A DNA stretch of 58,883 nt, taken from the NCBI GenBank assembly GCA_002720535.1, contig PBIU01000009.1:1-58883 (forward strand), in the 5' to 3' direction. The notes beneath the pieces were generated by a model. The model saw nothing but the letters and a program-made list of their open reading frames with translations, was not told the origin of the DNA and made no database searches. Within the stretch, counting starts at the first letter, position 1; every line of letters begins with the position of its first letter. The position numbers were made by a program, and so were the translations under genes. The stretch is from Candidatus Pelagibacterales bacterium (GTDB lineage: Bacteria; Pseudomonadota; Alphaproteobacteria; TMED109). Of the stretch, positions 27,978 through 41,027 are shown piece after piece.

Positions 27978-27992
27978 TGTAATTATATAAAT

Positions 27993-28283
27993 ATGAATCA
28001 TTCACCTGCAAAACCAACTACTCAATTAGATAATAAATTTGTAAGAGTTACAAAATGGTTTTTTCCACCAAATTCTGAAACGGGCATGCATATCCATGAA
28101 ATGGATTATGTAGTAGTACCTTTGACTAGTGGAGTATTAACGATAGAAAACCCAGATAAAACTTTTAGTAAATCAGAACTTAATAAAGGCGAATCTTACT
28201 CACGTAATAAAGGTGTGCATCATAATGTTATAAACAAAAATGACTTTAATTTTACCTTTATTGAGATTGAAATTAAAAAATAA
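27993..28283 (+). CDS. Small cupin-domain protein
   Basis: 96 aa. GMHIHEMDYVVVPLTSG...GVHHNVIN matches the cupin motifs. Confidence 0.65.
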   Translation: MNHSPAKPTTQLDNKFVRVTKWFFPPNSETGMHIHEMDYVVVPLTSGVLTIENPDKTFSKSELNKGESYSRNKGVHHNVINKNDFNFTFIEIEIKK

Positions 28284-28287
28284 TTAT

Positions 28288-28794
28288 TTAACTTAGTTTA
28301 GATTTAATCTGTAAAGACAATAAAGAAATCAAACAATATCCAGTAAAGTAATAAAAGCCAACCTCTAAAGTTGCATCTAACATATTAGATGCTTTACTTC
28401 CTAAATATGCAATAAATGCTCCAACAGCAAAGACGTCTGCCATAGACCATCTTCCTATTCTAAATATAAAGTTATGGGCAGATGATTTACCTGATATTTC
28501 TCCAAAAAAGAAAACCCATAAAATCACAACTCCTTTTAGCACAGGAATCATCACACTAAAAAATAATATTAAAAATGAAACTAAGTAATAACCGCCCTCA
28601 TATAATGTGTCTACGGCTTGTAAAATAGATTGCTTATATTTAAATACTTCTTGTCCTGCATATTCCGCAGAAATTGTCATCATTGGTTGAGTAACACCAA
28701 AATATAAAAGTAAAAAAGAAATTAGTAATAATATAAATGATGCCGTATTCCTAAAATTGAAAGGCACCATATTAAAATTGAATAAATTATTCAT
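28288..28794 (-). CDS. PqiA-family (paraquat-inducible protein A-like) integral membrane protein, single domain
   Basis: 168 aa, 4 TM segments. RIGRWSMADVFAVGAFIAYL matches the conserved GRWSM.DVF element of PqiA. Confidence 0.6.
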   Translation of the reverse strand: MNNLFNFNMVPFNFRNTASFILLLISFLLLYFGVTQPMMTISAEYAGQEVFKYKQSILQAVDTLYEGGYYLVSFLILFFSVMIPVLKGVVILWVFFFGEISGKSSAHNFIFRIGRWSMADVFAVGAFIAYLGSKASNMLDATLEVGFYYFTGYCLISLLSLQIKSKLS

Positions 28795-28924: not shown

Positions 28925-28999
28925 TCCGCGGTAGCTCAGTGGTAGAGCAATCGGCTGTTAACCGATCGGTCGTAAGTTCGAATCTTACCCGCGGAGCCA
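28925..28999 (+). tRNA. tRNA-Asn (anticodon GUU)
   Basis: Hand-folded 75 nt. Acceptor TCCGCGG/CCGCGGA, D-arm GCTC-AGTGGTA-GAGC, anticodon stem ATCGG/CCGAT with loop CTGTTAA (GTT), T-arm GTAAG-TTCGAAT-CTTAC, discriminator G, encoded CCA. Confidence 0.95.
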
Positions 29000-29004
29000 T
29001 TTAA
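28949..29004 (+). repeat. attL-type direct repeat (3' 51 nt of tRNA-Asn plus 5 nt of flank)
   Basis: 56 nt, identical to 39252-39307 except for one position (G28996 vs A39299). Confidence 0.9.
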
Positions 29005-29057
29005 TTCCTTGATGTACCTAGGTTTATTGTAGTTAATAATTTTGCAAAATTTTCTAG

Positions 29058-29126
29058 GTGGCCAAAATGTGGCCAATGAAAAACTTAAAAAAAATAGGTG
29101 GCCAAAAGGTCAATCGGTTTTTTATA
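29058..29126 (+). repeat. Left-end GTGGCCAA motif array (candidate arm-type or iteron sites)
   Basis: GTGGCCAA at 29058, 29069 (11-bp phasing) and 29098. Block GGTGGCCAAAAGGTCAATCGGTTTTTTA has a counterpart at 39097-39129. The 18-mer TGGCCAAAATGTGGCCAA (29059-29076) is identical to 39131-39148. Confidence 0.6.
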
Positions 29127-29388
29127 GATAATTATTAAAAAAAACCCAGAAATCAGGAAAAAACACTATAAATTCCAAGGATATTCCATTTTAGTACACC
29201 ATCGAGGAAAATTATAAAAGCGCCTCATATTATCTTTATCTGTAGATATAATACCTTCTCTAAGAGTGCATCTTACACCTGTAAATATATTCTCTTTTAT
29301 ATATACTTCAATGTTACTAATTACTTCTTAGTAAATTTAGCTTACCATAAATTTATTAAATGTGAATGGGGAGAATAAAATCTAAAAT

Positions 29389-29417
29389 TTGACAGAACGT
29401 CTTTTTAAGATTAATAT
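29389..29417 (+). promoter_or_regulatory. Candidate promoter inside the island leader
   Basis: Consensus -35 TTGACA (29389-29394), 17-nt spacer, TAATAT (29412-29417). An intrinsic terminator follows within about 40 nt. Confidence 0.3.
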
Positions 29418-29432
29418 TAATTTTCAACATTG

Positions 29433-29464
29433 GTCTGTGAAATAAAATCACAGGCTTTTTTTTT
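29433..29464 (+). terminator. Intrinsic terminator-like hairpin plus T9
   Basis: Stem GTCTGTGA/TCACAGGC (8 bp including one G-U) at 29433-29440 / 29448-29455, 7-nt loop, then T9 (29456-29464). Confidence 0.5.
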
Positions 29465-29497
29465 GCGTGAATTGTAATTTTTTTTTGCAAGCAATGT

Positions 29498-29573
29498 CCA
29501 ATTCTCTTTCTCTAAATTTAAAAGCCTTCAATGGAATTGCAAAAGGCTTTTAAATTTAGAGAAAGAGAATTGG
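29498..29573. repeat. 31-bp perfect inverted repeat with a 14-nt spacer
   Basis: CCAATTCTCTTTCTCTAAATTTAAAAGCCTT (29498-28528 read as 29498-29528) is the exact reverse complement of 29543-29573. Verified base by base. Lies in ORF-free DNA. Confidence 0.9.
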
Positions 29574-29630
29574 GGTAACTCCCCATTATTTTTTCTTCTT
29601 ATTTTTCTCTCTGAATTTGCGAGCCATAAC

Positions 29631-29678
29631 TAATTATCTCTTAAAGAAAGAATATTATGATTTCTTTAAAGATAATTA
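29631..29678. promoter_or_regulatory. Imperfect inverted repeat (operator-like) just upstream of the first island ORF
   Basis: TAATTATCT(C)TTAAAGAAA (29631-29649) pairs with TTTCTTTAAAGATAATTA (29661-29678), 18 bp with one bulged C and an 11-nt spacer. Ends about 10 nt before the SD AGGAG of ORF 29699. Confidence 0.35.
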
Positions 29679-29698
29679 ATAACTAATAGGAGCACGCA

Positions 29699-29959
29699 AT
29701 GAAAACACTTCTTAAAGATATATCCAAAGATCAAATTATCTCTGTTGGTGATTTGAGTAAATACATAATACAAGATCGCAACAGGTCTATACAAGAATAC
29801 GTAAATGAGCAAGTTGCATTGAAACGACAAACACCCATGAAGTGTTGGTCGATGGATAACATCTTACAATTAGTTACTAATAAGTTTGGTGAAAGTGCAC
29901 ACGCTTTCGCTAGACGTTATCTCATTAAAGATATTTTTAACCTAACTGAATCTAAATAA
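29699..29959 (+). CDS. Hypothetical protein (island)
   Basis: 86 aa with a strong SD TAGGAGCACGCAATG. No recognisable family. Confidence 0.55.
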   Translation: MKTLLKDISKDQIISVGDLSKYIIQDRNRSIQEYVNEQVALKRQTPMKCWSMDNILQLVTNKFGESAHAFARRYLIKDIFNLTESK

Positions 29960-29972
29960 AGGAGAATAATCT

Positions 29973-30170
29973 ATGACTAAGAAAACACGCTTTTATATCG
30001 AATGCCCATACTCTGATAAAGACAAATGTAAAAAACTAGGTGGCTATTGGGATACATCAGCACGCAAGTGGTATGTACCTGAAGGTGTCGATACAGAACC
30101 TTTTAAAGAATGGTTCCCTGATGACATACCTTCAGAAAAAAAAAGTCTAGAAAACAGTATCTCGATGTAG
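29973..30170 (+). CDS. DUF5710-like module 1; 5' part of a gene apparently split by a frameshift
   Basis: 65 aa, SD AAGGAG. FYIECPYSDKDKCKKLGGYWDTSARKWYVPEGVDTEPFKEWFP resembles the small K.WYVP module found at N-termini of conjugative primase-type proteins (DUF5710, from memory). Confidence 0.6.
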   Translation: MTKKTRFYIECPYSDKDKCKKLGGYWDTSARKWYVPEGVDTEPFKEWFPDDIPSEKKSLENSISM

Positions 30171-30190
30171 ACTTTCGTGAATTTCGTCGA

Positions 30191-30595
30191 GTGAAAGAAC
30201 AAGGTGCTTTGTGGGATGATCATAAGAAACAATGGTTTATTACAGAGCACCATGACACTAAAGATTTTAAATGGTGGCTACCCTTCTATGTTGAAGATAG
30301 TTCAGAAGAATATGAGTTAGAAGAGCCAACCATTGAAGAACAAATAGAAGGAATAGAAGAATCTCTTAAGCTTCATGCTGAAGTAATAGTGGATATTCTT
30401 AAGGAAAAAGAAAAGGAAGATTATTATGTAGAGCAGGAAGAAACACCAAGAGAGGAGTATGCTCGAAAACTTCAGGAACTCTATGAAAGTTATGATGAGG
30501 ATATGGAGGCTTGGAGTAATACCAGTCGTTTAGATCCAGAATCTCTTGCTTTTCTAGATATGTCAGATGAGAATAGAGAGAAGATGATCAATTAG
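30191..30595 (+). CDS. DUF5710-like module 2 plus highly acidic tail; 3' part of the split gene
   Basis: The track starts at GTG 30191, but the frame is open from 30125 and encodes SRKQYLDVDFREFRRVKEQGALWDDHKKQWFITEHHDTKDFKWWLP. The module therefore begins upstream of any start codon. The C-terminal half is Glu/Asp-rich. Confidence 0.6.
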   Translation: MKEQGALWDDHKKQWFITEHHDTKDFKWWLPFYVEDSSEEYELEEPTIEEQIEGIEESLKLHAEVIVDILKEKEKEDYYVEQEETPREEYARKLQELYESYDEDMEAWSNTSRLDPESLAFLDMSDENREKMIN

Positions 30596-30611
30596 TATAA
30601 AGGAACAATTA

Positions 30612-30770
30612 ATGTATAGTAAAAAAGTTATAATTTTATGGATTATAATATTTGGAGGAATTGCTATTTTTTTAGAAACACAAAATGGATTAGTTTTTGA
30701 TATACTATTGTGGATTTTTACAATACTTTGTGGATTAAGTATTTATCAATTATACTTACGATTAAAATAA
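30612..30770 (+). CDS. Small 2-TM membrane peptide (52 aa), not in the ORF track
   Basis: Own translation: MYSKKVIILWIIIFGGIAIFLETQNGLVFDILLWIFTILCGLSIYQLYLRLK. SD AAGGAA about 7 nt upstream. Starts 17 nt after the stop of the previous ORF. Confidence 0.4.
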   Translation: MYSKKVIILWIIIFGGIAIFLETQNGLVFDILLWIFTILCGLSIYQLYLRLK

Positions 30771-30799
30771 ATAGAATAATTTCAACTAATATAATGAGA

Positions 30800-31273
30800 T
30801 TAGAAAAAACAGGGACTAATACTTACCCAATGTTTGGGTTCGCGTTTATCAATCCATGAAATAAAACATTGATAAACATCATTATTACTCAATCCACGAC
30901 TAATAAGAGAATAACTATCTAGATTATCCACATTGTTTTTTTTAAAAAAATTATATTGGTTTTTTAACCAATTTAAGTCTCTTTTTTGAAAATAAATGGT
31001 TTTTACCTTAAACTTATTTTTTACACTACGTAAACAACTAGTCTTAATTTTAGGTCTTTCAAAACCTAAAGTTCCATTAATTCTGGTAGAACTACTTAAT
31101 AGGTCTTTTGTACTAAATGTCATAGTGCTTGTAACCAAGCACTTAGCTCCACTAGAAGGAGAATCAACAAGTATTAATGCATTACTATTCCATCTAGCAA
31201 TGTTTCTATATTCTCCAAAAACTAGAGAAATATATGAGAAAAATAGAATAATAATTAAAGAGAATATTTTCAT
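30800..31273 (-). CDS. Exported hypothetical protein (4 Cys in the mature part)
   Basis: 157 aa. Signal peptide MKIFSLIIILFFSYISLVFG. No recognisable family. Confidence 0.55.
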   Translation of the reverse strand: MKIFSLIIILFFSYISLVFGEYRNIARWNSNALILVDSPSSGAKCLVTSTMTFSTKDLLSSSTRINGTLGFERPKIKTSCLRSVKNKFKVKTIYFQKRDLNWLKNQYNFFKKNNVDNLDSYSLISRGLSNNDVYQCFISWIDKREPKHWVSISPCFF

Positions 31274-31297
31274 ATTTAAATCTTTAATTAAAAATTA

Positions 31298-31477
31298 TTA
31301 TAGTATTTGAAAATAGTATAAAGGCCATATTAAACCTTGCAAAGTTGCAATGATTTCTCCAAATAACAACCATGCCATAAAACCTTTTTCAACAGCAAAA
31401 AGATAATTAAAATACAAGGCAGCAATAGCTGCACTTGCACCATATAAATATAATAAACCAATAATAATTTTTTCCAT
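31298..31477 (-). CDS. Small 2-TM membrane peptide (59 aa), not in the ORF track
   Basis: Own translation: MEKIIIGLLYLYGASAAIAALYFNYLFAVEKGFMAWLLFGEIIATLQGLIWPLYYFQIL. SD GGGGG 5 nt upstream. Sits between two same-strand ORFs. Confidence 0.4.
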   Translation of the reverse strand: MEKIIIGLLYLYGASAAIAALYFNYLFAVEKGFMAWLLFGEIIATLQGLIWPLYYFQIL

Positions 31478-31507
31478 GTAAACCCCCAGATTAAAATAAT
31501 AGTATTA

Positions 31508-31870
31508 TCAAGTTTCAGTATCTTTCCATTTTTCTAGTCTGTACTCTAAATGAGTATAAAGATCATCTCCAAGTTCCTTCCAATCTTCTTTTTTCCAATC
31601 TTTAGTGTCAACTTCTCCTTCTGATACTGCCTTGGAACCACCAAAAAATGTTTTTTTTCTATAAAATTTAGTTAAGATATCACATGGTACACAATATGAA
31701 TACCAATTGACTTCACCTGAATTAGTGCGAGAATTAGCTAATATGTGTGTTCTATTATCAAGAAACTTAATTTGGTCTTCGTAACTTAAAGAATTAAAAT
31801 TATCTACTATTTCTAATTTATTCTCTACTCCACAGCCAGGACAGTTTATAGTACCCAAATAAAAATCCAT
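31508..31870 (-). CDS. Zinc-ribbon hypothetical protein
   Basis: 120 aa. CPGC (aa 10-13) and CVPC (aa 60-63) form a four-Cys ribbon. Charged, W/K/E-rich C-terminus. Confidence 0.55.
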   Translation of the reverse strand: MDFYLGTINCPGCGVENKLEIVDNFNSLSYEDQIKFLDNRTHILANSRTNSGEVNWYSYCVPCDILTKFYRKKTFFGGSKAVSEGEVDTKDWKKEDWKELGDDLYTHLEYRLEKWKDTET

Positions 31871-32021
31871 ATTTAATTACCCCTAAATACTTCATAATAA
31901 ATGCTATCATAAAAATATAAGACCTCAAAATTTTTACATAAAATATCCATAATCTCTAAATCCTAATTTTATATCTCTTTAGTACAACTATAATTGTTAG
32001 TTGCAACGATTAACCATTAAG

Positions 32022-32079
32022 GACTTAAGAGCATGTATATAGTTGTTTATTCTTCTCCCCTAAATAATGCTCTTAAGTC
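32022..32079. repeat. Inverted repeat in the divergent intergenic region
   Basis: GACTTAAGAGCAT (32022-32034) and ATGCTCTTAAGTC (32067-32079), a 13-bp perfect stem extendable with wobbles, with a 32-nt spacer. Confidence 0.5.
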
Positions 32080-32111
32080 TTTAGCAACATTTACAACGAA
32101 AGGAACACATC

Positions 32112-32171
32112 ATGTGGTTTGAAGCCATCGCTTATTTCACTCTTGCCCTACTACAAATAAGTATTTTTTAA
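32112..32171 (+). CDS. Possible 19-aa hydrophobic leader or micro-peptide
   Basis: ATG behind AAGGAA. MWFEAIAYFTLALLQISIF. Ends 17 nt before ORF 32189. Very short, so weakly supported. Confidence 0.2.
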   Translation: MWFEAIAYFTLALLQISIF

Positions 32172-32188
32172 ATTACAAAGGACTCTCT

Positions 32189-32863
32189 ATGAAAAAATCT
32201 CTCATCTTACTTCCCTTACTTTACATATTTGCCATCGTAATATTTTTTATTCTTATGTCTCCAGCAATTAGTAAAGAGGTTGAGAATGATACAAAACAAT
32301 TAAGATCTCATAATGCAGAAGAGGATTATAGTTTTATAGAAGATCGTGTTGATGGATTATGGACTTTAGAAGATGGTATGAATAAAGGAGAATTTTTACT
32401 ATCTGTTAATGCAAAAAATACACATGCAGATAGATTGTACTTTCGTTTAATGCATGATTGCGAAACTATTAATGTATTAACAAGTTTATTAAGTATGAAA
32501 AATAATCCTAAGATTGAAAGGATTAAACAATTATATGTTAGCACACACTATTTAAAAGAATATATGCTAGTTCATGTGCCAGTAGTTAACAAACTTCCAA
32601 GTGAAGAATCAGAATATGATAATGATGCATGGATATTTTGGTTTGATTTAGGATGGTATACAGTTTCTACAATAAAAAATTGGCATAATAATATTAATGA
32701 AATCACATTCTCTATTCAACATGATGCTCTCTTTAAAGCTAATAACTATTTAGATAATACACAAAATTCTTGGAGCACCAATGGAATGATAGAAGCTATA
32801 GATAGAGCAGTAGGTGTATGTATAAAAACAAATATACGTAATCAAGAAGTGCTAAATAATTAA
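32189..32863 (+). CDS. Membrane-anchored or exported hypothetical protein
   Basis: 224 aa. N-terminal MKKSLILLPLLYIFAIVIFFILMSPAIS. No recognisable family. Confidence 0.55.
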   Translation: MKKSLILLPLLYIFAIVIFFILMSPAISKEVENDTKQLRSHNAEEDYSFIEDRVDGLWTLEDGMNKGEFLLSVNAKNTHADRLYFRLMHDCETINVLTSLLSMKNNPKIERIKQLYVSTHYLKEYMLVHVPVVNKLPSEESEYDNDAWIFWFDLGWYTVSTIKNWHNNINEITFSIQHDALFKANNYLDNTQNSWSTNGMIEAIDRAVGVCIKTNIRNQEVLNN

Positions 32864-32865
32864 AT

Positions 32866-33234
32866 ATGAAAAAATTAATTTATATAATTTCTACTATATT
32901 ATTTTTAATTAATTTAGTTTCTTGTAGTGAAGCCAAAGAAGACCATATTTGCGAAACAAAAACTTTAGGGATAGTTACAATTAAAGATGGTCTTATTAAT
33001 AATAAAGAAACTAAACACTATTATGAAGGTAGTGGTGTTTGTGCCTACTCTATACATTATTCTAAGATAAAAGATATTTATGTTTATTATTATCCTGGTG
33101 ATGAAGGATGTCATAATGGTGAATATGAACCTCCTCCTGATAACTTTGCTGGAAGAATAACTTTGACTAATAATCCTGATGAGAGATATGGTTGGATAGA
33201 TGCTATAGAACATGTCATGTGTTTTTATAAATAA
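32866..33234 (+). CDS. Lipoprotein, hypothetical
   Basis: 122 aa. Lipobox LVSC at aa 17-20 after a hydrophobic signal. 5 further Cys. Starts 2 nt after the upstream stop. Confidence 0.6.
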   Translation: MKKLIYIISTILFLINLVSCSEAKEDHICETKTLGIVTIKDGLINNKETKHYYEGSGVCAYSIHYSKIKDIYVYYYPGDEGCHNGEYEPPPDNFAGRITLTNNPDERYGWIDAIEHVMCFYK

Positions 33235-33251
33235 AATATGGGGAGTATAAG

Positions 33252-33449
33252 ATGAAGTATTTAATAATTGTAATTTTAAGTAGTTTTGTTGTTAGTCTAG
33301 CTCATGCTGATAAATATCAGATAGCAACTGCTGATAAGTATGAAGTTTGGGTGGTTAATACAAAAACTGGTCAAGTCAAGATTTGTTTTGATGCACGTAA
33401 TAAATTAGATGACCCACCAACGTGCTCAAAATGGTCTGATAAAGACTAA
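33252..33449 (+). CDS. Small exported protein (2 Cys)
   Basis: 65 aa. Signal peptide ending AHA-D. SD GGGGAG. Confidence 0.5.
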   Translation: MKYLIIVILSSFVVSLAHADKYQIATADKYEVWVVNTKTGQVKICFDARNKLDDPPTCSKWSDKD

Positions 33450-33470
33450 ATAAAATTAAATAGGAAAGTA

Positions 33471-34319
33471 ATGAAATATATCATCATAGTTTTATTCTGT
33501 TTTATGGGAGCTATAGGATTTTATCTTTATAATCAAGATACACCTGAACCTAATAATGAAGTCTCTCAAGCAGTAAAAGAAGATACACCTGAACCTAATA
33601 ATGAAGTCTCTCAAGCAGTAAAAGAAGATGGGGAGACTAGATATCAAAAAAATCATCGTATTTATTCTGAAGTCCTCAAGAAATGTTCTGATATAGAAAA
33701 CTATAAATTTAAGTCAGTTATTCATACAGGTTCAAACTTAGATCTTAACTGTTTAGAAATGGAATTAGCACCTCATAGTCAAGTAAAACCAAAGATACTA
33801 TCCACAAATGAAATAACTGGTAAGTTTGATGAAGCTTCAGTAACACTAATGGAAATAAAATCAGTCTTTGATATTTGTTCAGGAGAGTATGAGCCTTTTT
33901 GTAAAGATAATCTTATAATAGATAATGATAAATTCATTTATGTACGTACAAGTGATCAAGCAGAAACATCCCTCTTAAAAGAAAATACTTATCATCTTGT
34001 AAATAGAACGAGTACTTATAGAAGTAATTATATTTATTATGCAGATAAAAATAAATTAGTAGATCTAAGTTTTGGTGGCACTCTAGAATTTGAGGAAGAC
34101 ACTATAATAAAATATGGAGTCAAATCTTATTGGGATGGTGGAGGAGCTTTTTGGTATAATGTAAAAATAGATTATGAGGGAAACTTTATTGAACTTATTA
34201 ATGAAGAAGACTCAGACAATTGTTATCCCTTAGAAGAATTTGATCATAATAATGAAGAATTTAAGAATACTTTTAAACAGCAAGGTCTAAAAGAGTTGTG
34301 TGTTTGGGAAAATTACTAA
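33471..34319 (+). CDS. Membrane-anchored hypothetical protein with a duplicated 15-aa linker
   Basis: 282 aa. N-terminal TM helix, then DTPEPNNEVSQAVKE twice, then a Cys-containing globular part. Confidence 0.55.
   Translation: MKYIIIVLFCFMGAIGFYLYNQDTPEPNNEVSQAVKEDTPEPNNEVSQAVKEDGETRYQKNHRIYSEVLKKCSDIENYKFKSVIHTGSNLDLNCLEMELAPHSQVKPKILSTNEITGKFDEASVTLMEIKSVFDICSGEYEPFCKDNLIIDNDKFIYVRTSDQAETSLLKENTYHLVNRTSTYRSNYIYYADKNKLVDLSFGGTLEFEEDTIIKYGVKSYWDGGGAFWYNVKIDYEGNFIELINEEDSDNCYPLEEFDHNNEEFKNTFKQQGLKELCVWENY
33537..33626 (+). repeat. Perfect 45-bp tandem duplication (2 copies), in frame
   Basis: GATACACCTGAACCTAATAATGAAGTCTCTCAAGCAGTAAAAGAA at 33537-33581 and again at 33582-33626, followed by GAT. 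Confidence 0.95.
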
Positions 34320-34461
34320 ATAATTAATTCCTTTATTTAATCCTTGCTACAGATATTTATATAAATTGATATGATTATGTGCTTTATGAGGAAAAAAAAT
34401 ATCTTGAATATTTGTATTATTTCAAGTTTACTAAATGTTCCTACAATGAAAGTAAGCAGTT

Positions 34462-37400
34462 ATGCCTGATGTAGAAGATATTAATACTGATGAAGATAAA
34501 TTAAATGTAAGCAGCAAGAACAATTCAAGTTTTATTGATTCTTTAGCGAGATACTATAGTGAATTTTTATCTACAGATTTCAAAAAAGGAAGACTACCTA
34601 AAAGAAAATTTCAAATAAAAGATTCTAAAGGTAGAAGAAGCGGAATTCCATTATCAAAATATAAATCCTTTAAAACTAATTTAAGAAAAAAACTTATAAA
34701 AAATATTCAAAAAAATGATGCTTTTTCAATTAAGTTTAATGAACATAAATCAAAATTATCTATTGTTACTGAAAATGCTATAGAAGGTGCGATTAAAAAT
34801 ATCAGCACTAAAAATTTCGATACTAAAAATACACAATTAATAGAGAAATTTACAATAGATATAAACAAGAAAAATGCAGATATCGAAAAACTAATGAATA
34901 CATTTATTGAAGCTCTTCAAAATAATTTAAGTTTAGATATTCTAGCACCCCTTATAGAATTACTTGAACCTACTTTTAAAAAAACTGAACAAGATCTAAT
35001 TGATAGACTAATAAGTGTAGATAGCGAAATAACAAATTTATTCATAGAAAAAATTACTGAAGATTTACCTAGTGCAATACCAAAGATTATTACAGATAAT
35101 GACCCATCATTAATAGAACAAATTATAGATGAAAATTTTAATGAAAATTACATTAAAAAAAATTTAAAAGATTTTTTTAATGATTTTTCTGCTAATGACC
35201 TTTATTCCGAAATGCGTGAATTACAAACTGTTGAAAAATTAGATGATAACTTAGAATTTTATCTATATCTTGGGGAAATAAAGTTTAACTCTAATACATT
35301 TCCAATTTTTTATATTCCAATGGAGGTTGCTAATACTAAAGATAAAAAAACTATTTTAGAGTGTAAGTTAGATTCTAGGATATTAATAAATAAAAAAGCT
35401 ATAGATTTTATTGCAAGAGAAATTCAAGAAACAACTAAAACAAAAAGTGCTTCACCAATAAAAGAAAGAATAGTCTATTTAGATGCAGAAGATGTGATAT
35501 TTGAAAAAATAGACGCTATACTTCAAGAAATTTTAGCTTCTTTTAGCTTAAACGGTTATCAGTCTTTTGAAAATGAAACTAAAGAATTAAAAAATTCTAC
35601 AGCAACTATAAACACATCACTTTCAATATCATTATTTGATAAATCAGATGAATCAATGTTATCTGATTATGAAGAATTATTAGATAAAATTTTAAGAACT
35701 TCAGATGAATCTCCTCTTTTCAATTTTTTAACAAGTTTAATTGAAAGTTTTATTCACAAGAATCCTACTGATATTAGCGAAGGAATTTTAGACGAATGGG
35801 ATGAAACAAATATTACAGAACGTTTAGTATTTGACACTCCTCTACCTCTAGCTGAAGAGCAAAGAAAAATTCTTTTAGCACTTAATAATGAAAAATCTAA
35901 ATTTATAACAGTTGAAGGACCTCCCGGAACTGGAAAATCTCATACAATATCTGCAATAGCTTTCGAAGCTATTCTAAAAGGTAAAAAGATTTTAGTTCTA
36001 TCAGATAAAAAAGAAGCTTTAGATGTTGTACAAAATAAAATAAATGAAACTTTATCAAGAGTTAGACCAACAGATGACTTTATAAACCCTATATTAAGAT
36101 TAGGGAGAGCAGGTTCTAACTTTAGAAAATTAACTACAGGAAGAGCAATAGAAAACTTAAATATACAACACAGAGAATTTAAAAAACAAAGTCAGAAAAG
36201 AGAAAATCTATATAAAAATGCCGTTGATAACCTTAAGAGTAAAATATCTAACCATATAAAATATGCAAAAGACATAGATATGTCTAAAGTGACTAATTAT
36301 GAGTTAGATAGATTAGAATTTTTTAATGAATTTGATGATTATAAAAATTTAGAAAATGTCTTTGAAAATAATGATAATTTATATACGGACGCAATTGAAA
36401 ATTTAAAACACCTGGCAAATGTAAGAAATAAACTAAAAAAATATACTAAAAATTTTACAAAATTATTTCATAAGTTTGATAAAAATAAATTAGAATTTCT
36501 AAATTTTATGATATTTATTTCAGACTGTAAAAATACTAATACTAATAATTTTAATAATTTAGCGACCAAAGTAAATTCATCAAATTATAGTGATATTTTA
36601 AATTTCTCTAATAAGATAACCTTAAGTAAGGGAATGTTTGGATATTTTTTTTCAGGTACAAAAATTCAACTTATAAAAAATGATTTAAAAAATACACTCG
36701 GTATTAATTTTAATGGAACGCCTCAAAGTCTTATTCAAGAATTAGAAAAGATATATAATGATGCCAATTCTTTTTTTGCGAATTTAGAAAATAAAGGATG
36801 GAAAGATAAATTATTTTTATATCGAGAAATATTAGAACTAGATATTGACCTTAAAGAATTAGAAGAAGTAATTAAAACTTATAAACTTATTAATTCAAAA
36901 GATATAATTTATATTAAAGACCCATCTGAAATTATAGATATACTATGTGAAAATGATAGTGACAGTGGGTTATTTTTAGAAAGATTTCTAGAACTTCAAA
37001 ATACAAGAGATGAAATTTCTAAATCATTTTATTTTGATGATTATAATTATTTAGCTAGAAAACAAGAGCTTGAAAATTATAATGCTTTGAAATTAGCTAC
37101 AGAAATTGACTCTAGAGTAATTGACTTTGCACAAAATAAAAAAAATGATGCTAAAACTTTAAGTGATATTATAAGAAAAAAATTAAAATTTCCTAAAGAA
37201 AAATTTTCAATTTTATCACAAGCTTTCCCGTGTATGATTTGTTCATTAAGAGACTACGCAGAATATATCCCACTAGAAAAAGAACTTTTTGATATTATTA
37301 TTATCGATGAAGCATCACAAGTATCTATCGCCCAAGCATTGCCCGCAATAATTAGATCTAAGAAAATGGTAGTTATGGGCGATAGAAAGCAGTTTGGGAA

Positions 37401-39030
37401 TGTTAAAACTTCTCAAGCATCTAAAGAAATAAACAACTCTTATTTCACAGATGTTATGAAAGAATTGGATCACAAAGATAGTACAGAAGATGAAATTAAA
37501 GTTAAGGCTCAAGCATTAAATATAAGCTTCTCAGTTTTAGATTTTATGGAAAGGGTAAGTAATTTCAATATTGGCTTAAAGAAACACTTTCGTGGCTATC
37601 CTGAAATGATATCATTTTCATCAAAATATTTTTACGAAAATACTCTGCAGCCAATGAAGATTAGAGGTAAACCTCTATCTGAGGTTTTAGAATTTATTCA
37701 TATTAAACCAGATAGTATGTTTGATAAGATTAAAAATACAAATGAAAAAGAAGCAGATTTAATCTTAGAAAAAATAATAAAACAACTTGATGACGAGGAC
37801 TTTAGATCAGTGGCCGTGATAACTCCATTTACTGCGCAGCAAACTTATATAAGTAGAACAATATCAAATCATACAAGATATCAGGAAATTTTAGAAAAAT
37901 TAAAGTTTAGATGCTTTACTTTTGATTCGTGTCAGGGTGAAGAACGCGATATTATCTATTATAGCTTCGTTGCTAATGAACAAAGAGATATGCTTTGGTC
38001 AATTTTCCCTAAATACTTGCATCAACAAGATGAAGATGAATTAGATAGAAACCTGAAAATGCAAAGATTAAATGTAGGTTTTTCAAGAGGTAAAGAAAAG
38101 CTAATTTTCATCCATTCAAAACCTATAAATGAACTTAAATCATGTTTAAGAGAGGCTCTTAATCACTATTCCACTATAGTAAATAATGCCTATGAACTTC
38201 CGTCTGAGGACAAACTTGATAAAAATTCTCCTGCAGAAAAAAAAGTTCTTCGCTGGTTAGAAAGCGCACCTATTATAAGACAATATCAGCCTGAAATTGA
38301 TCCTCAATTTAAAATAGGTGACTATTTAAAATCTTTAGATAAAAGTTATGATCATCCGGCATACAGAGTTGATTTTTTACTAAGGTTTTTTATTGATAAT
38401 AAGCAATACGATATAATAATTGAATATGATGGATTTGAATACCACTTTAAAAACCATGAAGATATTGATGCAGGTAATTGGGAACATTATTTAAGAGATC
38501 AAGATATTGAGCGTGAGAAAGTACTTGAATCATATGGGTATAAAACATTAAGAATAAATAGATTTAATATTGGTAAAGATCCAATTTTAGAATTAAATAA
38601 AAGAATTGAAAATTTACTAAATGAATTTAAAGATAATGGCGAAGCATTAATTAAAAGTGTTGTAGAAAACACTAATATTGCAGTTGAAGGCATAGCTACT
38701 GGAGACATAAGAGTCTGTAAAAAATGTAATCAAAATAAACCAGCAAAAGAATTTGAAAATCCTGAGAGAAAAAGTGGATACAATAGATATTGCTCTTCAT
38801 GTTCTCCTAGAAAGAGAACAAAAAAAAAAATAAATAGAAGCAAGAATACTAATAAACCTGGCCAAAAAAGATGTAAAAATTGTAAAAAGTTTTTTCCTGA
38901 TTCAGAATTTATAGATAATACAAACATTTCTGGCAAAAGAGTTCTTTGCTCTAAATGTAAAACTATTTCAAATAGAAAAAGAGAAGAACAAGCTAGAATA
39001 TGGCATAGCAGAGGAAGAAGATACCGTTAA
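34462..39030 (+). CDS. 1,522-aa fusion: DUF4011-like N-terminal region + SF1 (Upf1/DNA2-like, AAA_11/AAA_12) helicase + Vsr/DUF559 (MTES_1575-type) endonuclease + two C-terminal CxxC zinc ribbons
   Basis: GPPGTGKS (nt 35917-35940), IIIDEASQ (D at nt 37306), GDRKQ, TFDSCQGEERD, RLNVGFSRGK, YRVDFLL...IIIEYDGFEYH...YGYKTLRINRF, CKKC..CSSC and CKNC..CSKC. See findings. Confidence 0.85.
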   Translation: MPDVEDINTDEDKLNVSSKNNSSFIDSLARYYSEFLSTDFKKGRLPKRKFQIKDSKGRRSGIPLSKYKSFKTNLRKKLIKNIQKNDAFSIKFNEHKSKLSIVTENAIEGAIKNISTKNFDTKNTQLIEKFTIDINKKNADIEKLMNTFIEALQNNLSLDILAPLIELLEPTFKKTEQDLIDRLISVDSEITNLFIEKITEDLPSAIPKIITDNDPSLIEQIIDENFNENYIKKNLKDFFNDFSANDLYSEMRELQTVEKLDDNLEFYLYLGEIKFNSNTFPIFYIPMEVANTKDKKTILECKLDSRILINKKAIDFIAREIQETTKTKSASPIKERIVYLDAEDVIFEKIDAILQEILASFSLNGYQSFENETKELKNSTATINTSLSISLFDKSDESMLSDYEELLDKILRTSDESPLFNFLTSLIESFIHKNPTDISEGILDEWDETNITERLVFDTPLPLAEEQRKILLALNNEKSKFITVEGPPGTGKSHTISAIAFEAILKGKKILVLSDKKEALDVVQNKINETLSRVRPTDDFINPILRLGRAGSNFRKLTTGRAIENLNIQHREFKKQSQKRENLYKNAVDNLKSKISNHIKYAKDIDMSKVTNYELDRLEFFNEFDDYKNLENVFENNDNLYTDAIENLKHLANVRNKLKKYTKNFTKLFHKFDKNKLEFLNFMIFISDCKNTNTNNFNNLATKVNSSNYSDILNFSNKITLSKGMFGYFFSGTKIQLIKNDLKNTLGINFNGTPQSLIQELEKIYNDANSFFANLENKGWKDKLFLYREILELDIDLKELEEVIKTYKLINSKDIIYIKDPSEIIDILCENDSDSGLFLERFLELQNTRDEISKSFYFDDYNYLARKQELENYNALKLATEIDSRVIDFAQNKKNDAKTLSDIIRKKLKFPKEKFSILSQAFPCMICSLRDYAEYIPLEKELFDIIIIDEASQVSIAQALPAIIRSKKMVVMGDRKQFGNVKTSQASKEINNSYFTDVMKELDHKDSTEDEIKVKAQALNISFSVLDFMERVSNFNIGLKKHFRGYPEMISFSSKYFYENTLQPMKIRGKPLSEVLEFIHIKPDSMFDKIKNTNEKEADLILEKIIKQLDDEDFRSVAVITPFTAQQTYISRTISNHTRYQEILEKLKFRCFTFDSCQGEERDIIYYSFVANEQRDMLWSIFPKYLHQQDEDELDRNLKMQRLNVGFSRGKEKLIFIHSKPINELKSCLREALNHYSTIVNNAYELPSEDKLDKNSPAEKKVLRWLESAPIIRQYQPEIDPQFKIGDYLKSLDKSYDHPAYRVDFLLRFFIDNKQYDIIIEYDGFEYHFKNHEDIDAGNWEHYLRDQDIEREKVLESYGYKTLRINRFNIGKDPILELNKRIENLLNEFKDNGEALIKSVVENTNIAVEGIATGDIRVCKKCNQNKPAKEFENPERKSGYNRYCSSCSPRKRTKKKINRSKNTNKPGQKRCKNCKKFFPDSEFIDNTNISGKRVLCSKCKTISNRKREEQARIWHSRGRRYR

Positions 39031-39087
39031 ACAAGTTAAAACCAGAGCATTAAGATTAGAAAAGATTATGCGAACTGGACAACTGCT
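39029..39087 (+). repeat. Right-arm segment with a homologue at 39719-39766
   Basis: AAACAAGTTAAAACCAGAGC...AGATTATGCGAACTGGACAAC versus AAACAAGTTAATACTAGAGC...AGATTATGCGAACTGAGCAAC. Hand alignment shows about an 11-nt indel. Confidence 0.6.
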
Positions 39088-39097
39088 TTAATAGCTT

Positions 39098-39148
39098 GGT
39101 GGCCAATTTTTATGGGCAATCGGTTTTTTACTGGCCAAAATGTGGCCA
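39098..39148 (+). repeat. Right-end GTGGCCAA motif array
   Basis: GTGGCCAA at 39098 and 39141, CTGGCCAA at 39130 (11-bp phasing with 39141), CAATCGGTTTTTTA at 39116-39129. Mirrors the left-end array. Confidence 0.6.
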
Positions 39149-39251
39149 ACAAATACGGCAATGTGTGGACATAATTGGGAACACATGTTACTCTGTGAGC
39201 AAGGCATATTCTGACTTTTGAGGATTTGCAAGGGTTACAGAGCAAGGTATT

Positions 39252-39307
39252 AATCGGCTGTTAACCGATCGGTCGTAAGTTCGAATCTTACCCGCGGAAC
39301 CATTTAA
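39252..39307 (+). repeat. attR-type direct repeat (tRNA-Asn 3' half)
   Basis: 55/56 identity to 28949-29004. Lacks the tRNA 5' part, so it is not a functional tRNA. Confidence 0.9.
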
Positions 39308-39421
39308 CTAAAAAATTATCTCATTAAAATAAAAAATAAGTATACAAATTACTTATTTGTGTTTTAATTTTTAAAATAATATTAAATTTGATTAAATAAA
39401 TATTTATAGAGGAAATGTGAA

Positions 39422-39658
39422 ATGACAAATATAATTAAAATGAAAACGGGCGCATGGGCTAACCCAAAAATTATTGCTAAAGGTAACGTAAGTTCTGTTA
39501 AAAAAATGGGCGCGTTTTATGTTTTTACTATAAAACTAGATAGCAACGATATCAGAGAATACTCTTTCACTTCATCTAATAAAGCTGAGCATATGAGAAA
39601 AATTATGATTGGACACCTAGAAGAAAAATTCAGAAAAGAATTAAAATCTTATAAGTAA
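39422..39658 (+). CDS. Hypothetical protein (in the remnant)
   Basis: 78 aa with SD AGAGGAAA. No recognisable family. Confidence 0.45.
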   Translation: MTNIIKMKTGAWANPKIIAKGNVSSVKKMGAFYVFTIKLDSNDIREYSFTSSNKAEHMRKIMIGHLEEKFRKELKSYK

Positions 39659-39718
39659 ATTGAAATACTAAAATAATGGAGCAAAGCTGCAAACGAAATG
39701 AAGGATAGCCTATTAGCT

Positions 39719-39766
39719 AAACAAGTTAATACTAGAGCTTAGATTATGCGAACTGAGCAACAGATT
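39719..39766 (+). repeat. Homologue of the island right-arm segment 39029-39087
   Basis: See 39029-39087. Here it lies only about 7 nt before the tRNA pseudo-fragment. Confidence 0.6.
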
Positions 39767-39772
39767 TCACAG

Positions 39773-39843
39773 TCAGTGCTAGAGTAATCGGCTGTTAACC
39801 TATCGGTCGTAAGTTCGATTATTACCCGCAGATACATTTAATT
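39773..39843 (+). pseudogene. tRNA-Asn pseudo-fragment (tRNA positions ~12-75 plus flank, degenerate)
   Basis: TCAGTGCTAGAGTAATCGGCTGTTAACCTATCGGTCGTAAGTTCGATTATTACCCGCAGATACATTTAATT aligns to 28936-29006 with about 8 mismatches. The 5' acceptor strand is absent, and the T-stem and acceptor pairing are broken. Confidence 0.7.
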
Positions 39844-39856
39844 TTATATATTAATA

Positions 39857-40378
39857 TTATTTGGCTGAAACTACTCTGACATAGCCATCATTAGATCTTA
39901 CTATATTAATGTTGCTTCCATCAGAAATTATATCAGATTCGTCAGAAATAGCCTGAACAATTACTATTGTATCTGATGCATTTGAACAAGTACTTGATAC
40001 GTTTTCACAATTTATATTGATTGTATATTCTACTCCGTCGCTTTTATTTCTCATTTCTTCTAAAGCTGTACCAGCCATTGCTCCTCCTATTACCGATATA
40101 ATTATAGCTGCTTCTTCTAAAACATTATCTCCACCAGTAAGGCCATATGTAGTAGCACCAGCTAGTGTAGCACCTATAGCAGCCCCCCAATATTGAGTAT
40201 CTTTTTTTAAGCCTGCGATGACTATTTGTCTCGATGCAACAATAACTCCAGGAGTAGTTTCCATAATAATACCAACTTCTTCAGGGTTATAAACAGATGA
40301 TTTTTTATCTACACAACCAGACAGAATAATAAAGAAAACTAAAAATAAAAATAAATAAACTCTATTGAAAATAATCAT
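39857..40378 (-). CDS. Glycine-zipper outer-membrane lipoprotein (SlyB / 17-kDa-antigen-like)
   Basis: ATG 40378 lies behind GAGGGAG (the track starts at 40405). Lipobox LSGC. Glycine zippers GAAIGATLAGATTYGLTGG and VIGGAMAGTA. Confidence 0.65.
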   Translation of the reverse strand: MIIFNRVYLFLFLVFFIILSGCVDKKSSVYNPEEVGIIMETTPGVIVASRQIVIAGLKKDTQYWGAAIGATLAGATTYGLTGGDNVLEEAAIIISVIGGAMAGTALEEMRNKSDGVEYTININCENVSSTCSNASDTIVIVQAISDESDIISDGSNINIVRSNDGYVRVVSAK

Positions 40379-40425
40379 AATTAAAAAAACTCCCTCAATA
40401 AGCAATCACAGTCTAAAATAAAAAT

Positions 40426-40974: not shown

Positions 40975-41027
40975 AAATACATTATACCTTATTTGCAAAA
41001 AAAAATAAATTTCTATAAAATAATTTT

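What the first reader, a model, noticed from the sequence alone, without database searches (positions are those of the whole stretch)
28925..39307. 10.3-kb tRNA-Asn genomic island bounded by a 56-bp direct repeat but lacking any recombinase (CIME-like)
Seen: an intact tRNA-Asn(GUU) lies at 28925-28999. Its 3' 51 nt plus 5 nt of flank (28949-29004) recur at 39252-39307 with a single mismatch at the discriminator position (G28996 vs A39299). Between the repeats lie 0.7 kb of ORF-free DNA and about a dozen ORFs with no housekeeping function. Spacers there are 0.7, 0.3 and 0.14 kb, whereas the flanking core has spacers of only a few bp or overlapping genes. AGGAG-type SD sequences are frequent. 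No ORF shows tyrosine-recombinase (R...HxxR...Y) or serine-recombinase motifs by eye. The stretch next to the tRNA, where an integrase gene normally sits (29005-29698), has no ORF of 60 aa or more on either strand. Established: duplication of a tRNA 3' half is the signature of site-specific integration. Elements that keep att sites but lack int are cis-mobilisable (CIME) or decayed. tRNA genes are known att sites for temperate pelagiphages and for tycheposon-type elements in marine oligotrophs. Inference: this is an integrative element that lost its recombinase or relies on one encoded elsewhere, and it now acts as a cargo-carrying hypervariable island.
Basis: partly seen in the sequence, partly recalled or inferred. 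Interest (0 to 1): 0.65.

Follow-up and report, generated by a model that had tools for sequence, protein, structure and literature searches.

The report
Integrase-less island framed by phage att sites
A 10.3-kb block of accessory genes sits next to the tRNA-Asn gene of an uncultured marine alphaproteobacterium, between the two halves of a temperate phage's attachment site. The phage's integrase and all its other genes are gone, and some cells of the same population lack the block exactly.

Summary
tRNA-Asn lies at 28925-28999. Its 3' 56 nt recur at 39252-39307, and a third, decayed copy lies at 39773-39843.

New here: the island ends are the two halves of a phage attP. In IMG/VR phage contigs, window 39028-39307 (98% identity) is fused at the 56-nt core to window 28949-29123 (90-92%). 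There the site sits between a lysozyme gene and a 393-aa tyrosine integrase. The window keeps only the last 21 lysozyme codons, both arms and all six arm-type sites. No integrase remnant was found. The 9.9-kb interior matches none of 396 kb of related phage DNA.

Cargo is an Upf1-like helicase-nuclease of anti-phage type, a small module with two DUF5710 genes, and secreted ORFans.

Metagenome contigs of the same population show three alleles. One has the island. One has tRNA joined precisely to 39308. One has tRNA joined precisely to 39844.

A sister phage with a tRNA-Cys-specific integrase frames a second integrase-less island. That island shares 1.25 kb at 96% identity with this one.

Best reading: a prophage-derived, CIME-like, att-bounded cargo island that only a phage integrase supplied in trans could move. 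Active mobilisation is not shown.

The parts
28925..28999 (+). Intact tRNA-Asn(GTT). It serves as the attB-derived half of attL.
   Evidence: ARAGORN. Rfam tRNA, 73.8 bits.
28949..29004 (+). attL core: 56 nt running from the 5' side of the anticodon stem to 5 nt past the tRNA 3' end.
   Evidence: Direct-repeat family D1. Identical to the core of the phage attP.
29005..29123 (+). P' arm of the phage attP. It carries three GTGGCCAA arm-type sites (29058-65, 29069-76, 29098-105) and the motif CAATCGGTTTTTT (29111-29123). In the phage the integrase start codon lies 52 nt beyond this arm.
   Evidence: 90-92% identity to L123, L124 and L125 over 175 nt including the core. Alignment A2 shows the sites covary with those of the P arm across phage variants. 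Integrase position in L123.
29124..29385 (.). Non-coding DNA found only in this island, at the place where the phage has its integrase gene. It shows no integrase remnant.
   Evidence: No ORF of 60 aa or more. tblastn with the integrase is negative. tblastx against 396 kb of phage loci is negative.
29386..30635 (+). Module shared at 96% identity with a second integrase-less island at tRNA-Cys in another genome (L158).
- Promoter-like TTGACA-17-TAATAT at 29389-29417.
- Terminator-like hairpin at 29432-29456.
- Perfect 31-nt inverted repeat at 29498-29573.
- 86-aa ORF at 29699-29959.
- DUF5710 ORF at 29973-30170.
- DUF5710-like ORF at 30191-30595.
   Evidence: BLAST of L158 against the window. 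Pfam DUF5710, E 1.3e-18 and 1.4e-05. Promoter and terminator scan. Inverted repeat I1. Fold z-score -8.
30612..34319 (.). ORFan cargo, mostly with predicted signal-peptide, lipoprotein or membrane N-termini:
- 52 aa at 30612-30770 (+)
- 157 aa at 30800-31273 (-)
- 59 aa at 31298-31477 (-)
- 120 aa with a Cys-rich, zinc-ribbon-like N-terminus at 31508-31870 (-)
- 224 aa at 32189-32863 (+)
- 122 aa at 32866-33234 (+)
- 65 aa at 33252-33449 (+)
- 282 aa at 33471-34319 (+)

The stretch 31937-32822 is 77% identical to part of the L158 island.
   Evidence: ORF list and translations. No family above threshold. The signal-peptide and zinc-ribbon readings are by eye from the translations. L158 similarity.
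34462..39030 (+). 1522-aa Upf1-like SF1 helicase with a REase_MTES_1575/DUF559-type nuclease and a C-terminal Cys-rich tail. Probably an anti-phage defence gene. Its TAA stop codon is supplied by the first bases of the phage-derived DNA.
   Evidence: Pfam AAA_11, AAA_12 and MTES_1575. PADLOC PDC-S37 6e-43, MkoA 9e-38, MkoC, Hhe. NCBIfam ProA and Hhe, both below cut-off. PDB Upf1 and IGHMBP2. Junction.
39028..39091 (+). Remnant of the last 21 codons of the phage lysozyme gene (…KQVKTRALRLEKIMRTGQLL*).
   Evidence: tblastn 94% identity over 17 aa. 98% nucleotide identity to L123-L125. L123 lysozyme hits Pfam PF00959.
39092..39251 (+). P arm of the phage attP, with arm-type sites at 39099-106, 39131-138 and 39142-149 and the motif CAATCGGTTTTTT.
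   Evidence: The 280 nt from 39028 to 39307 are 97.9-98.2% identical to L123, L124 and L125. Alignment A3.
39252..39307 (+). attR1 core. It matches the attL core at 55 of 56 positions here, and at 56 of 56 in contig L281.
39308..39843 (+). Older mini-island. It holds a 78-aa ORF (39422-39658), a decayed lysozyme 3' remnant (about 39663-39772) and a decayed att copy (39773-39843). It is precisely absent in contigs L176 and L178.
   Evidence: Repeat families D1 and D10. tblastn with the lysozyme, 59% identity at 39677-39766. Junction sequences.

Best explanation
The island is what remains after site-specific integration of a temperate phage, or of a derivative of one, into the 3' half of tRNA-Asn.

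Shown:
- The two ends are attL (tRNA + core + P' arm) and attR (lysozyme 3' stub + P arm + core) of a group of uncultivated roughly 35-kb phages.
- In those phages a 393-aa tyrosine integrase gene starts 52 nt from the P' arm.
- The integrase gene and every other phage gene are absent from the island.
- In their place lie 9.9 kb of non-phage cargo: an Upf1-like helicase-nuclease of anti-phage type, a DUF5710 module and secreted ORFans.
- The unit is a precise presence/absence polymorphism in the population.
- It sits in front of an older, more decayed relic of the same kind, so the tRNA is a reused landing site.

Inferred:
- Three GTGGCCAA sites in each arm are the integrase's arm-type binding sites.
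- The crossover lies in the anticodon stem-loop.
- The island cannot move by itself. It could be excised or integrated only when an infecting phage of this group supplies integrase and an excision factor, which makes it CIME-like.
- Day-to-day spread is mainly by homologous recombination through the flanks.
- The island's benefit to the cell is phage defence or cell-surface variation.
For: attP match:
- The 18-nt motif shared by both arms occurs twice, 230 nt apart, in three IMG/VR contigs. That is the spacing predicted for a joined attP.
- BLAST shows window 39028-39307 fused at the core to 28949-29123 in at least 10 viral contigs.
- In L123 the order is integrase (PF00589, E 1e-25), P' arm, core, P arm, lysozyme (PF00959).
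- The lysozyme stub is confirmed by tblastn.

Arm sites:
- They switch together in both arms between phage variants, GTGGCCAA versus CTGGACAA.

No phage content:
- tblastn finds no integrase remnant.
- tblastx of the interior against 396 kb of related phage loci finds nothing.
- No relatives of the 86-aa or the 1522-aa protein occur in IMG/VR.

Empty sites:
- Precise empty sites occur at both predicted junctions, on flanks 99.3-99.9% identical to the window.

Older relics:
- The window has one at 39663-39843.
- Relative L173 has two lysozyme/P-arm stubs downstream of tRNA-Asn and no integrase.

Parallel case:
- L158 has tRNA-Cys, a 24-nt repeat, GTGGACA arm sites at both ends and no integrase.
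- Its arms match the attP of sister phage L191. L191 is 87-94% identical to L123 at the nucleotide level, but its integrase is only 43% identical.

Recombination with the flanks:
- L160 and L164 carry an identical island on a divergent left flank.
- The identical tract runs 230-680 nt past attL.

Defence reading:
-.
Against: - No lysogen with the complete phage at this tRNA was found. The phage-host link therefore rests on att identity alone.
- The arms and core look young: 0-1 change in the 56-nt core, 98% identity in the P arm, and all six arm sites intact. Yet the whole 35-kb interior has been replaced. Slow random decay explains this poorly.
- Two islands at different tRNAs, framed by sister phages, share 1.25 kb at 96% identity. 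This hints at a recurrent mechanism rather than two accidents.
- How the cargo came to lie between the arms is unexplained.
- The empty alleles could be ancestral rather than products of excision.
- The defence function is inferred only from sub-threshold family similarity.
Confidence: 0.7

Rival explanations
1. Active hitcher. The 10.3-kb unit is a functional integrase-less mobile element. It carries a complete, matched copy of the helper phage's attP. Phage integrase and excision factor supplied in trans integrate and excise it as a circle, and it is perhaps packaged. It entered this site already lacking an integrase.
For: - All six arm-type sites and the core are intact, and a perfect 56/56 repeat exists in L281.
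- The arms are 98% and 90-92% identical to living phages, although no phage gene remains.
- Both empty sites are precise.
- The island interior is nearly invariant, 0-10 differences per 9.9 kb, across many ocean samples and on divergent flanks.
- A second such island at tRNA-Cys is matched to a sister phage's attP and shares a 96%-identical module.
- Contig L196 shows a contiguous P-core-P' junction flanked by non-phage DNA on both sides.
Against: - No circular junction of this island was found in any of about 40 contigs examined. All show the integrated form.
- Neither of the two island proteins searched (the 86-aa ORF and the 1522-aa helicase-nuclease) has a relative in IMG/VR viral contigs.
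- The tracts identical between genomes extend beyond attL, as expected for homologous recombination and not for att-bounded transfer.
- The lysozyme stubs differ in length between relics: 64 nt here, about 110 nt in the mini-island, and about 70 nt and about 150 nt in L173 and L196 respectively. That looks like random deletion endpoints.
- No replication or packaging genes were recognised.
- L196 could instead be the middle junction of two tandem islands.
Confidence: 0.2
2. An ordinary flexible genomic island exchanged only by homologous recombination. The att repeats are inert scars. The three alleles are old variants shuffled through the conserved flanks, and site-specific recombination has played no role since the original phage insertion.
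For: - Mosaic left flanks occur with an identical island (L160, L164), and the identical tract passes the att boundary.
- Between species, the whole stretch from tRNA-Asn to the SDR gene at 42016 varies (L002, L008, L172).
- att copy 3 is 11% diverged, yet the fully empty allele persists. This points to long-lived polymorphism.
Against: - It does not explain why the arms and core of island 1 are undecayed.
- It does not explain why a second island has arms matched to a sister phage.
- It overlaps largely with the best explanation and differs only on present-day competence for site-specific recombination.
Confidence: 0.35
3. The repeat comes from a tandem duplication of the tRNA-Asn gene followed by decay of the extra copies. 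No mobile element is involved.
For: ARAGORN calls a second tRNA-Asn at 39225-39302. The third copy, starting at 39773, extends into the D-arm region of the tRNA.
Against: - The sequences next to both copies are the two arms of a phage attP, including a lysozyme gene stub.
- The second call is below the Rfam threshold and lacks an acceptor stem.
- The same pseudo-tRNA is called inside the phage attP itself.
Confidence: 0.01
4. The island encodes its own unrecognised recombinase, for example within the unassigned N-terminal 460 residues of the 1522-aa protein or in a small ORFan, and is autonomously mobile.
For: Several ORFs have no family assignment. The 86-aa protein gave only a low-confidence all-helical model.
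Against: - The att structure, with core plus arm-type sites, is that of a heterobivalent tyrosine integrase, and that enzyme is found next to the same site in the phage.
- No catalytic recombinase signature was detected in any library.
Confidence: 0.04

Closest known systems
CIMEs, the cis-mobilisable elements of streptococcal ICE/IME systems, as defined in PMC5704250
   Same: The element has lost its integration genes but keeps attL and attR. It sits in tandem with other relics at the 3' end of a tRNA gene. A related element's integrase could in principle excise it.
   Different: - The parent is a phage, not an ICE or IME, and no conjugation is involved.
- The interior is not a decayed copy of the parent. 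It is entirely foreign cargo.
- Mobilisation has not been demonstrated.
Tycheposon-built genomic islands of Prochlorococcus (bioRxiv 10.1101/2020.12.28.424599)
   Same: - A streamlined marine oligotroph.
- tRNA-adjacent islands with arrays of partial tRNAs.
- Newer insertions push older ones further into the island.
- Degraded remnants and niche or defence cargo.
   Different: No tycheposon hallmark genes are present: no tyrosine recombinase and no replication module. The att arms derive from a lysozyme-encoding, CI-repressor-type temperate phage.
Defective or cryptic prophages, and tRNA-linked defence islands
   Same: att-bounded DNA at a phage integration site that carries an anti-phage-type gene. 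Defective prophages are discussed as possible proto-hitchers in PMC11389934.
   Different: Cryptic prophages normally keep recognisable phage genes. Here only a 64-nt gene stub and the att arms remain.
Phage satellites (PICI, P4-like, PICMI) and integrase-less hitchers such as CALINs and MITEs (PMC11389934)
   Same: A size of about one third of the putative helper genome. Integration at the helper's att site. Defence cargo. Like CALINs and MITEs, it would depend on a helper's recombinase.
   Different: Known satellites encode their own integrase and have regulatory, replication or packaging modules. None was found here, and no packaged or circular form was seen.
Helicase-nuclease anti-phage proteins (PADLOC PDC-S37, Mokosh MkoA/MkoC, Hhe, ProA)
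   Same: An Upf1-like SF1 core (AAA_11, AAA_12) with a REase_MTES_1575/DUF559-type nuclease. Length similar to the PDC-S37 profile.
   Different: Matches cover only the helicase and nuclease part. All NCBIfam scores are far below the curated cut-offs. The N-terminal 460 residues are unassigned, and no partner genes are present.

Membership tests
CIME (cis-mobilisable element) | Retains both attL and attR of a site-specific integrative element. | tested here: met
   The 56-nt cores plus P' and P arms match the phage attP.
CIME (cis-mobilisable element) | Has lost its integrase/excisionase and transfer genes. | tested here: met
   No recombinase family hit. tblastn with the cognate integrase is negative.
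CIME (cis-mobilisable element) | Derived from an ICE or IME by decay. | tested here: not met
   The parent att site belongs to a phage with lysozyme, a CI-like repressor and a tail-fibre-like gene. No conjugation genes are present.
CIME (cis-mobilisable element) | Can be excised or mobilised by a related element's integrase. | not testable with these tools
   Only precise empty sites are seen. No circle junction was found.
Defective prophage | Flanked by att sites produced by phage attP x attB recombination. | tested here: met
Defective prophage | Contains residual phage genes. | tested here: inconclusive
   Only the last 21 codons of the lysozyme gene remain. tblastx of the interior against 396 kb of related phage loci finds nothing. 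The complete 35-kb phage genomes were not fully retrieved.
Tycheposon | Encodes the family's tyrosine or large serine recombinase and a replication module. | tested here: not met
Tycheposon | Integrated at a tRNA and flanked by a partial tRNA repeat. | tested here: met
Phage satellite (PICI/P4-like) | Own integrase plus regulatory, replication or packaging-hijack genes. | tested here: not met
   None detected.
Phage satellite (PICI/P4-like) | Found encapsidated or in viral fractions. | tested here: not met
   The two island proteins searched (86 aa, 1522 aa) have no relatives in IMG/VR. This is absence from one collection only.
PDC-S37 / Mokosh / Hhe helicase-nuclease defence proteins (the 1522-aa ORF) | Full-length match to the family profile, at or above the curated threshold where one exists. 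| tested here: not met
   PDC-S37 matches at E 6e-43, but only residues 917-1398. NCBIfam ProA scores 138 bits against a cut-off of 1500, and Hhe 89 bits against 2000.
PDC-S37 / Mokosh / Hhe helicase-nuclease defence proteins (the 1522-aa ORF) | SF1 Upf1-like helicase core fused to a PD-(D/E)xK-type nuclease. | tested here: met
   AAA_11 and AAA_12 are above the Pfam cut-off. MTES_1575 is below its cut-off (23 bits against 38). PDB matches to Upf1 and IGHMBP2.

The most novel reading that the evidence does not exclude
Temperate phages of this marine alphaproteobacterial lineage are parasitised, or exploited, by integrase-less cargo elements. Each element consists of a roughly 400-nt copy of the helper's attP (lysozyme stub, P arm, core, P' arm) plus defence and surface genes. 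These elements would be integrated and excised purely by phage integrase in trans. They would come in versions matched to sister phages with different tRNA specificities (Asn here, Cys in L158). They would exchange modules with each other. In effect they would be a phage counterpart of CALINs or MITEs.
Probability: 0.2. Interest if true: 0.75.

Novelty: new member of a known kind. Interest (0 to 1): 0.45.

Why it matters
- It ties a hypervariable island in an abundant, uncultured, genome-streamlined marine bacterium to a concrete agent: a named set of phage contigs, their integrase and their attP. This gives a host assignment for those phages.
- It shows, at nucleotide resolution, three coexisting alleles of one tRNA hot spot in the wild.
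- It offers a clean test case for whether integrase-less islands in oligotrophs are inert scars or are moved by phage enzymes.
- If the second holds, much flexible-genome DNA in such bacteria could be phage-dependent hitchers.

Tried and rejected
- Arm-motif scan of GTDB species genomes: only scattered single chance hits.
- Intact lysogens. The integrase search in genome contigs found only distant enzymes. The P-arm 44-mer and lysozyme scans of genome contigs were negative. All contexts of integrase homologues P0013 and P0018 were free phage.
- Island genes in viral contigs or GenBank phages: none. The only hit was one weak helicase match in a gut phage.
- Homologues of the 86-aa protein: only relatives at 71% identity or more, on short contigs.
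- Structure of the 86-aa protein: pLDDT 65, four helices, too weak for a fold search.
- Rfam on the 0.7-kb spacer: only spurious miRNA-like hits to the perfect hairpin.
- Direction of change from the G/A discriminator mismatch: abandoned after L281 showed an island allele with G.
- Metagenome scan for other islands with these arms: only phage attP contigs plus the fragments L196 and L216.
- Extending L196 through its 201-aa ORF: no other occurrence.
- AEGEAN-169/HIMB59 affiliation: considered at first, not supported. The nearest labelled MAG is MarineAlpha9.
- Williams 2002, on sublocation classes of tRNA att sites, could not be read. The anticodon-loop crossover is therefore inferred from memory of that work and from where the identity block begins.

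Full report
OBSERVATION

ARAGORN finds tRNA-Asn(GTT) at 28925-28999. It also makes a second, irregular call at 39225-39302. Rfam scores the first at 73.8 bits and the second at 26.4 bits, below the 29-bit threshold.

The 56 nt at 28949-29004 recur at 39252-39307 with one mismatch, G28996 versus A39299. A third copy at 39773-39843 is 89% identical over 71 nt.

The region between the first two copies has spacers of 694, 318 and 142 nt. No ORF of 60 aa or more lies next to the tRNA. No island ORF hits a recombinase family in Pfam, PADLOC, PHROGs or NCBIfam.

WHAT THE ENDS ARE

Both ends carry the 18-mer TGGCCAAAATGTGGCCAA. Six of the ten TGGCCAA sites in the window lie in two roughly 50-nt patches beside the repeats.

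A scan of IMG/VR found three contigs, L123 to L125, with two copies of this 18-mer exactly 230 nt apart. That is the spacing expected if the right end of the island were joined to the left end through one core.

BLAST confirms the join. Window 39028-39307 (97.9-98.2% identity over 280 nt) is contiguous, through the shared core, with window 28949-29123 (90-92% over 175 nt). At least ten viral contigs show this.

In L123 the order is as follows:
- a 393-aa tyrosine integrase (PF00589, E 1e-25);
- 52 nt of spacer;
- the P' arm;
- the core;
- the P arm;
- the 3' end of a lysozyme gene (PF00959).

Window 39028-39091 still encodes the last 21 codons of that lysozyme. The TAA stop of the 1522-aa island ORF is formed by the first phage-derived bases.

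The phage contigs also carry a CI-type repressor, a VRR-NUC nuclease and tail-fibre-like genes. Their integrase has no close relative among GenBank phage records; the best match is at most 28% identical.

Across phage variants the short sites in both arms change together. L123, L125 and the window have GTGGCCAA. L127 and L132 have CTGGACAA. CAATCGGTTTTTT is invariant. I read these sites as arm-type integrase binding sites. This is an inference.

The identity block starts at the 5' base of the anticodon stem. From memory of Williams 2002, which I could not read here, this suggests a crossover in the anticodon loop.

WHAT IS MISSING AND WHAT IS INSIDE

tblastn with the phage integrase finds nothing in the whole window (best E 4.1). 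tblastx of 29124-39025 against 396 kb of related phage loci gives no hit at E 0.01 or better. The 86-aa and 1522-aa proteins have no relatives in IMG/VR.

The cargo consists of:
- A 1522-aa Upf1-like SF1 helicase with a REase_MTES_1575-type nuclease. It is related to PDC-S37, MkoA/MkoC, Hhe and ProA but below the family cut-offs.
- An 86-aa ORF and two DUF5710 ORFs. They follow a strongly structured non-coding leader with a promoter-like site, a terminator-like hairpin and a perfect 31-nt inverted repeat.
- Seven or eight ORFans, most with secretion-type N-termini by eye.

POPULATION EVIDENCE

Exact-protein look-ups recovered the island at 99.6-100% identity in many Tara and other ocean assemblies. 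It is always in the integrated form.

Starting from the flanking PqiA gene and from the 78-aa ORF, three alleles appear on flanks 99.3-99.9% identical to the window:
- A, with the island.
- B, with the tRNA joined precisely to 39308 (…GGAGCCATTTAA|CTAAAAAATT).
- C, with the tRNA joined precisely to 39844.

Among the contigs read, the PqiA look-up gave about 5 A, 9 B and 2 C. The 78-aa look-up gave about 11 A and 6 B.

The G/A mismatch is polymorphic. L281 carries the island with a perfect repeat. No direction of change, gain or loss, can therefore be inferred.

The island interior differs by 0-10 positions per 9.9 kb between contigs, and the arms are invariant. L160 and L164 have strongly divergent left flanks. 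In them the tract identical to the window extends 230-680 nt beyond attL. This is the signature of homologous recombination, or of chimeric assembly, rather than of att-bounded transfer.

No contig shows a circular junction of this island.

A REUSED SITE

The stretch 39308-39843 is an older unit of the same kind. It has a 78-aa ORF, a decayed lysozyme stub (59% at the protein level) and a decayed core.

A relative at 86% identity (L173) has two lysozyme/P-arm stubs behind its tRNA-Asn and no integrase. L008 has a single dimethylglycine-dehydrogenase-like gene between the tRNA and a decayed half-tRNA. L002 and L172 carry other genes there.

The lysozyme stubs differ in length: 64 nt here, about 110 nt in the mini-island, and about 70 nt in L173. 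L196 has about 150 nt. This looks like independent deletion endpoints.

A PARALLEL CASE

The 86-aa protein also occurs in GCA_902595325.1 (L158), in a different place. The order there is:
- tRNA-Cys;
- a P'-like arm with GTGGACA sites;
- a 1113-aa helicase-nuclease;
- 1251 bp that are 96% identical to window 29386-30635;
- an HNH gene;
- a segment 77% identical to window 31937-32822;
- Sel1-repeat genes;
- a P-like arm;
- a 24-nt repeat of the tRNA-Cys 3' end.

There is again no integrase. The arms match the attP of phage contig L191 at 98.7% on the P' side and 77% on the P side. L191 is a sister of L123, 87-94% identical at the nucleotide level, but its integrase is only 43% identical. Two sister phages with swapped integrase/attP modules therefore each frame an integrase-less island, and the two islands share a module.

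INTERPRETATION

It is firmly shown that the island is bounded by attL and attR of this phage group and that the cognate integrase is absent. It is also shown that the unit is a precise indel polymorphism at a reused tRNA hot spot.

The best description is a prophage-derived, CIME-like cargo island (definition). It compares with the stacked partial-tRNA islands built by tycheposons and with the 'proto-hitcher' view of defective prophages.

What is not explained is how 9.9 kb of foreign DNA came to lie between arms that show almost no decay. Three possibilities remain:
- Insertion followed by deletions.
- Repeated 'refreshing' of old arms by recombination with newly integrated phages. The lysozyme stub and the arms supply the homology. 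L216 shows a scar of recombination between the two arm motifs.
- Integration of an already integrase-less attP-bearing circle by phage integrase in trans.

The third is the more novel reading. It gains some support from the second island and from L196, a 1.5-kb contig with a contiguous P-core-P' junction flanked by non-phage DNA on both sides. It lacks any direct evidence such as a circle junction or a presence in viral fractions.

VERDICT

This is a new member of a known kind, an att-bounded integrase-less island derived from a phage. It has a moderate chance of being something more interesting. Interest 0.45.

Noticed in passing
L123, L191 and L127/L132 (IMG/VR contigs): Sister phages are 87-94% identical at the nucleotide level, yet they carry integrase/attP modules of different specificity. 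One targets tRNA-Asn and one tRNA-Cys, and the integrases are 43% identical. Within the Asn group, the arm-type sites covary between both arms (GTGGCCAA versus CTGGACAA).
   Followed up: partly
L196 1-1511 (Ga0310344_10250430): A contiguous P arm, core and P' arm. On one side lie only the last ~50 codons of the lysozyme gene and a non-phage 201-aa ORF. On the other side lies non-integrase DNA. The arms are a hybrid, with CTGGACAA sites in P and GTGGCCAA sites in P'. This may be a circle junction or the middle junction of a tandem of integrase-less elements.
   Followed up: partly
L216 1-1900 (Ga0209425_10087056): SPFH/NfeD-like genes (named by eye) lie between two degenerate tRNA-Asn cores. 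Next to one core the P' arm switches into P-arm sequence exactly at the shared 18-nt motif. This is a scar of recombination between the two arm copies.
   Followed up: partly
window 38819-38830: An A11/A12 homopolymer lies in the 3' part of the helicase-nuclease gene. Several contigs (L157, L170, L277, L278) have one extra A, giving a 1458-aa product that lacks the Cys-rich tail. This could be a real frameshift variant, phase variation or an assembly error.
   Followed up: partly
window 33535-33624: A perfect 45-nt tandem duplication lies inside the 282-aa secreted ORF. Some contigs have a single copy, giving a 267-aa product.
   Followed up: partly
L168 5422-5578 versus window 33971-34327: An island variant. 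The 3' end of the 282-aa gene is divergent, and beyond 34327 the contig carries different DNA in place of the helicase-nuclease gene. The cargo itself is therefore mosaic in the population.
   Followed up: no
L008 1627-4313: In a relative at 79% identity, a single 824-aa dimethylglycine/sarcosine-dehydrogenase-like metabolic gene (named by eye) lies between tRNA-Asn and a decayed half-tRNA. The half-tRNA begins at the anticodon loop. The same gene lies in the variable region of L002.
   Followed up: no
window 39857-41906: Three ORFan genes (182, 190 and 292 aa) lie outside the att-bounded units. They are present in all three alleles but absent from the relative L002. Between species, the variable region therefore reaches from the tRNA to the SDR gene at 42016.
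   Followed up: partly
window 29389-29600: A promoter-like TTGACA-17-TAATAT is followed by a short terminator-like hairpin and then a perfect 31-nt inverted repeat (fold z-score -8). The stretch is 96% conserved in the tRNA-Cys island of L158. It may be a small RNA, an operator for the 86-aa protein or an origin.
   Followed up: partly
L160 and L164 versus window 27412-28700: The left flank (PhyH, cupin and PqiA genes) is up to 24% divergent per 500 nt, although the adjoining island is identical. This is either a recombinant genome or a chimeric assembly.
   Followed up: partly
L001 (MarineAlpha9_Bin3 contig PTKH01000026.1): The contig of the closest named MAG ends inside tRNA-Asn. Several metagenome contigs (L282-L284) begin inside the att core. 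Assemblies therefore break at this polymorphic site.
   Followed up: no
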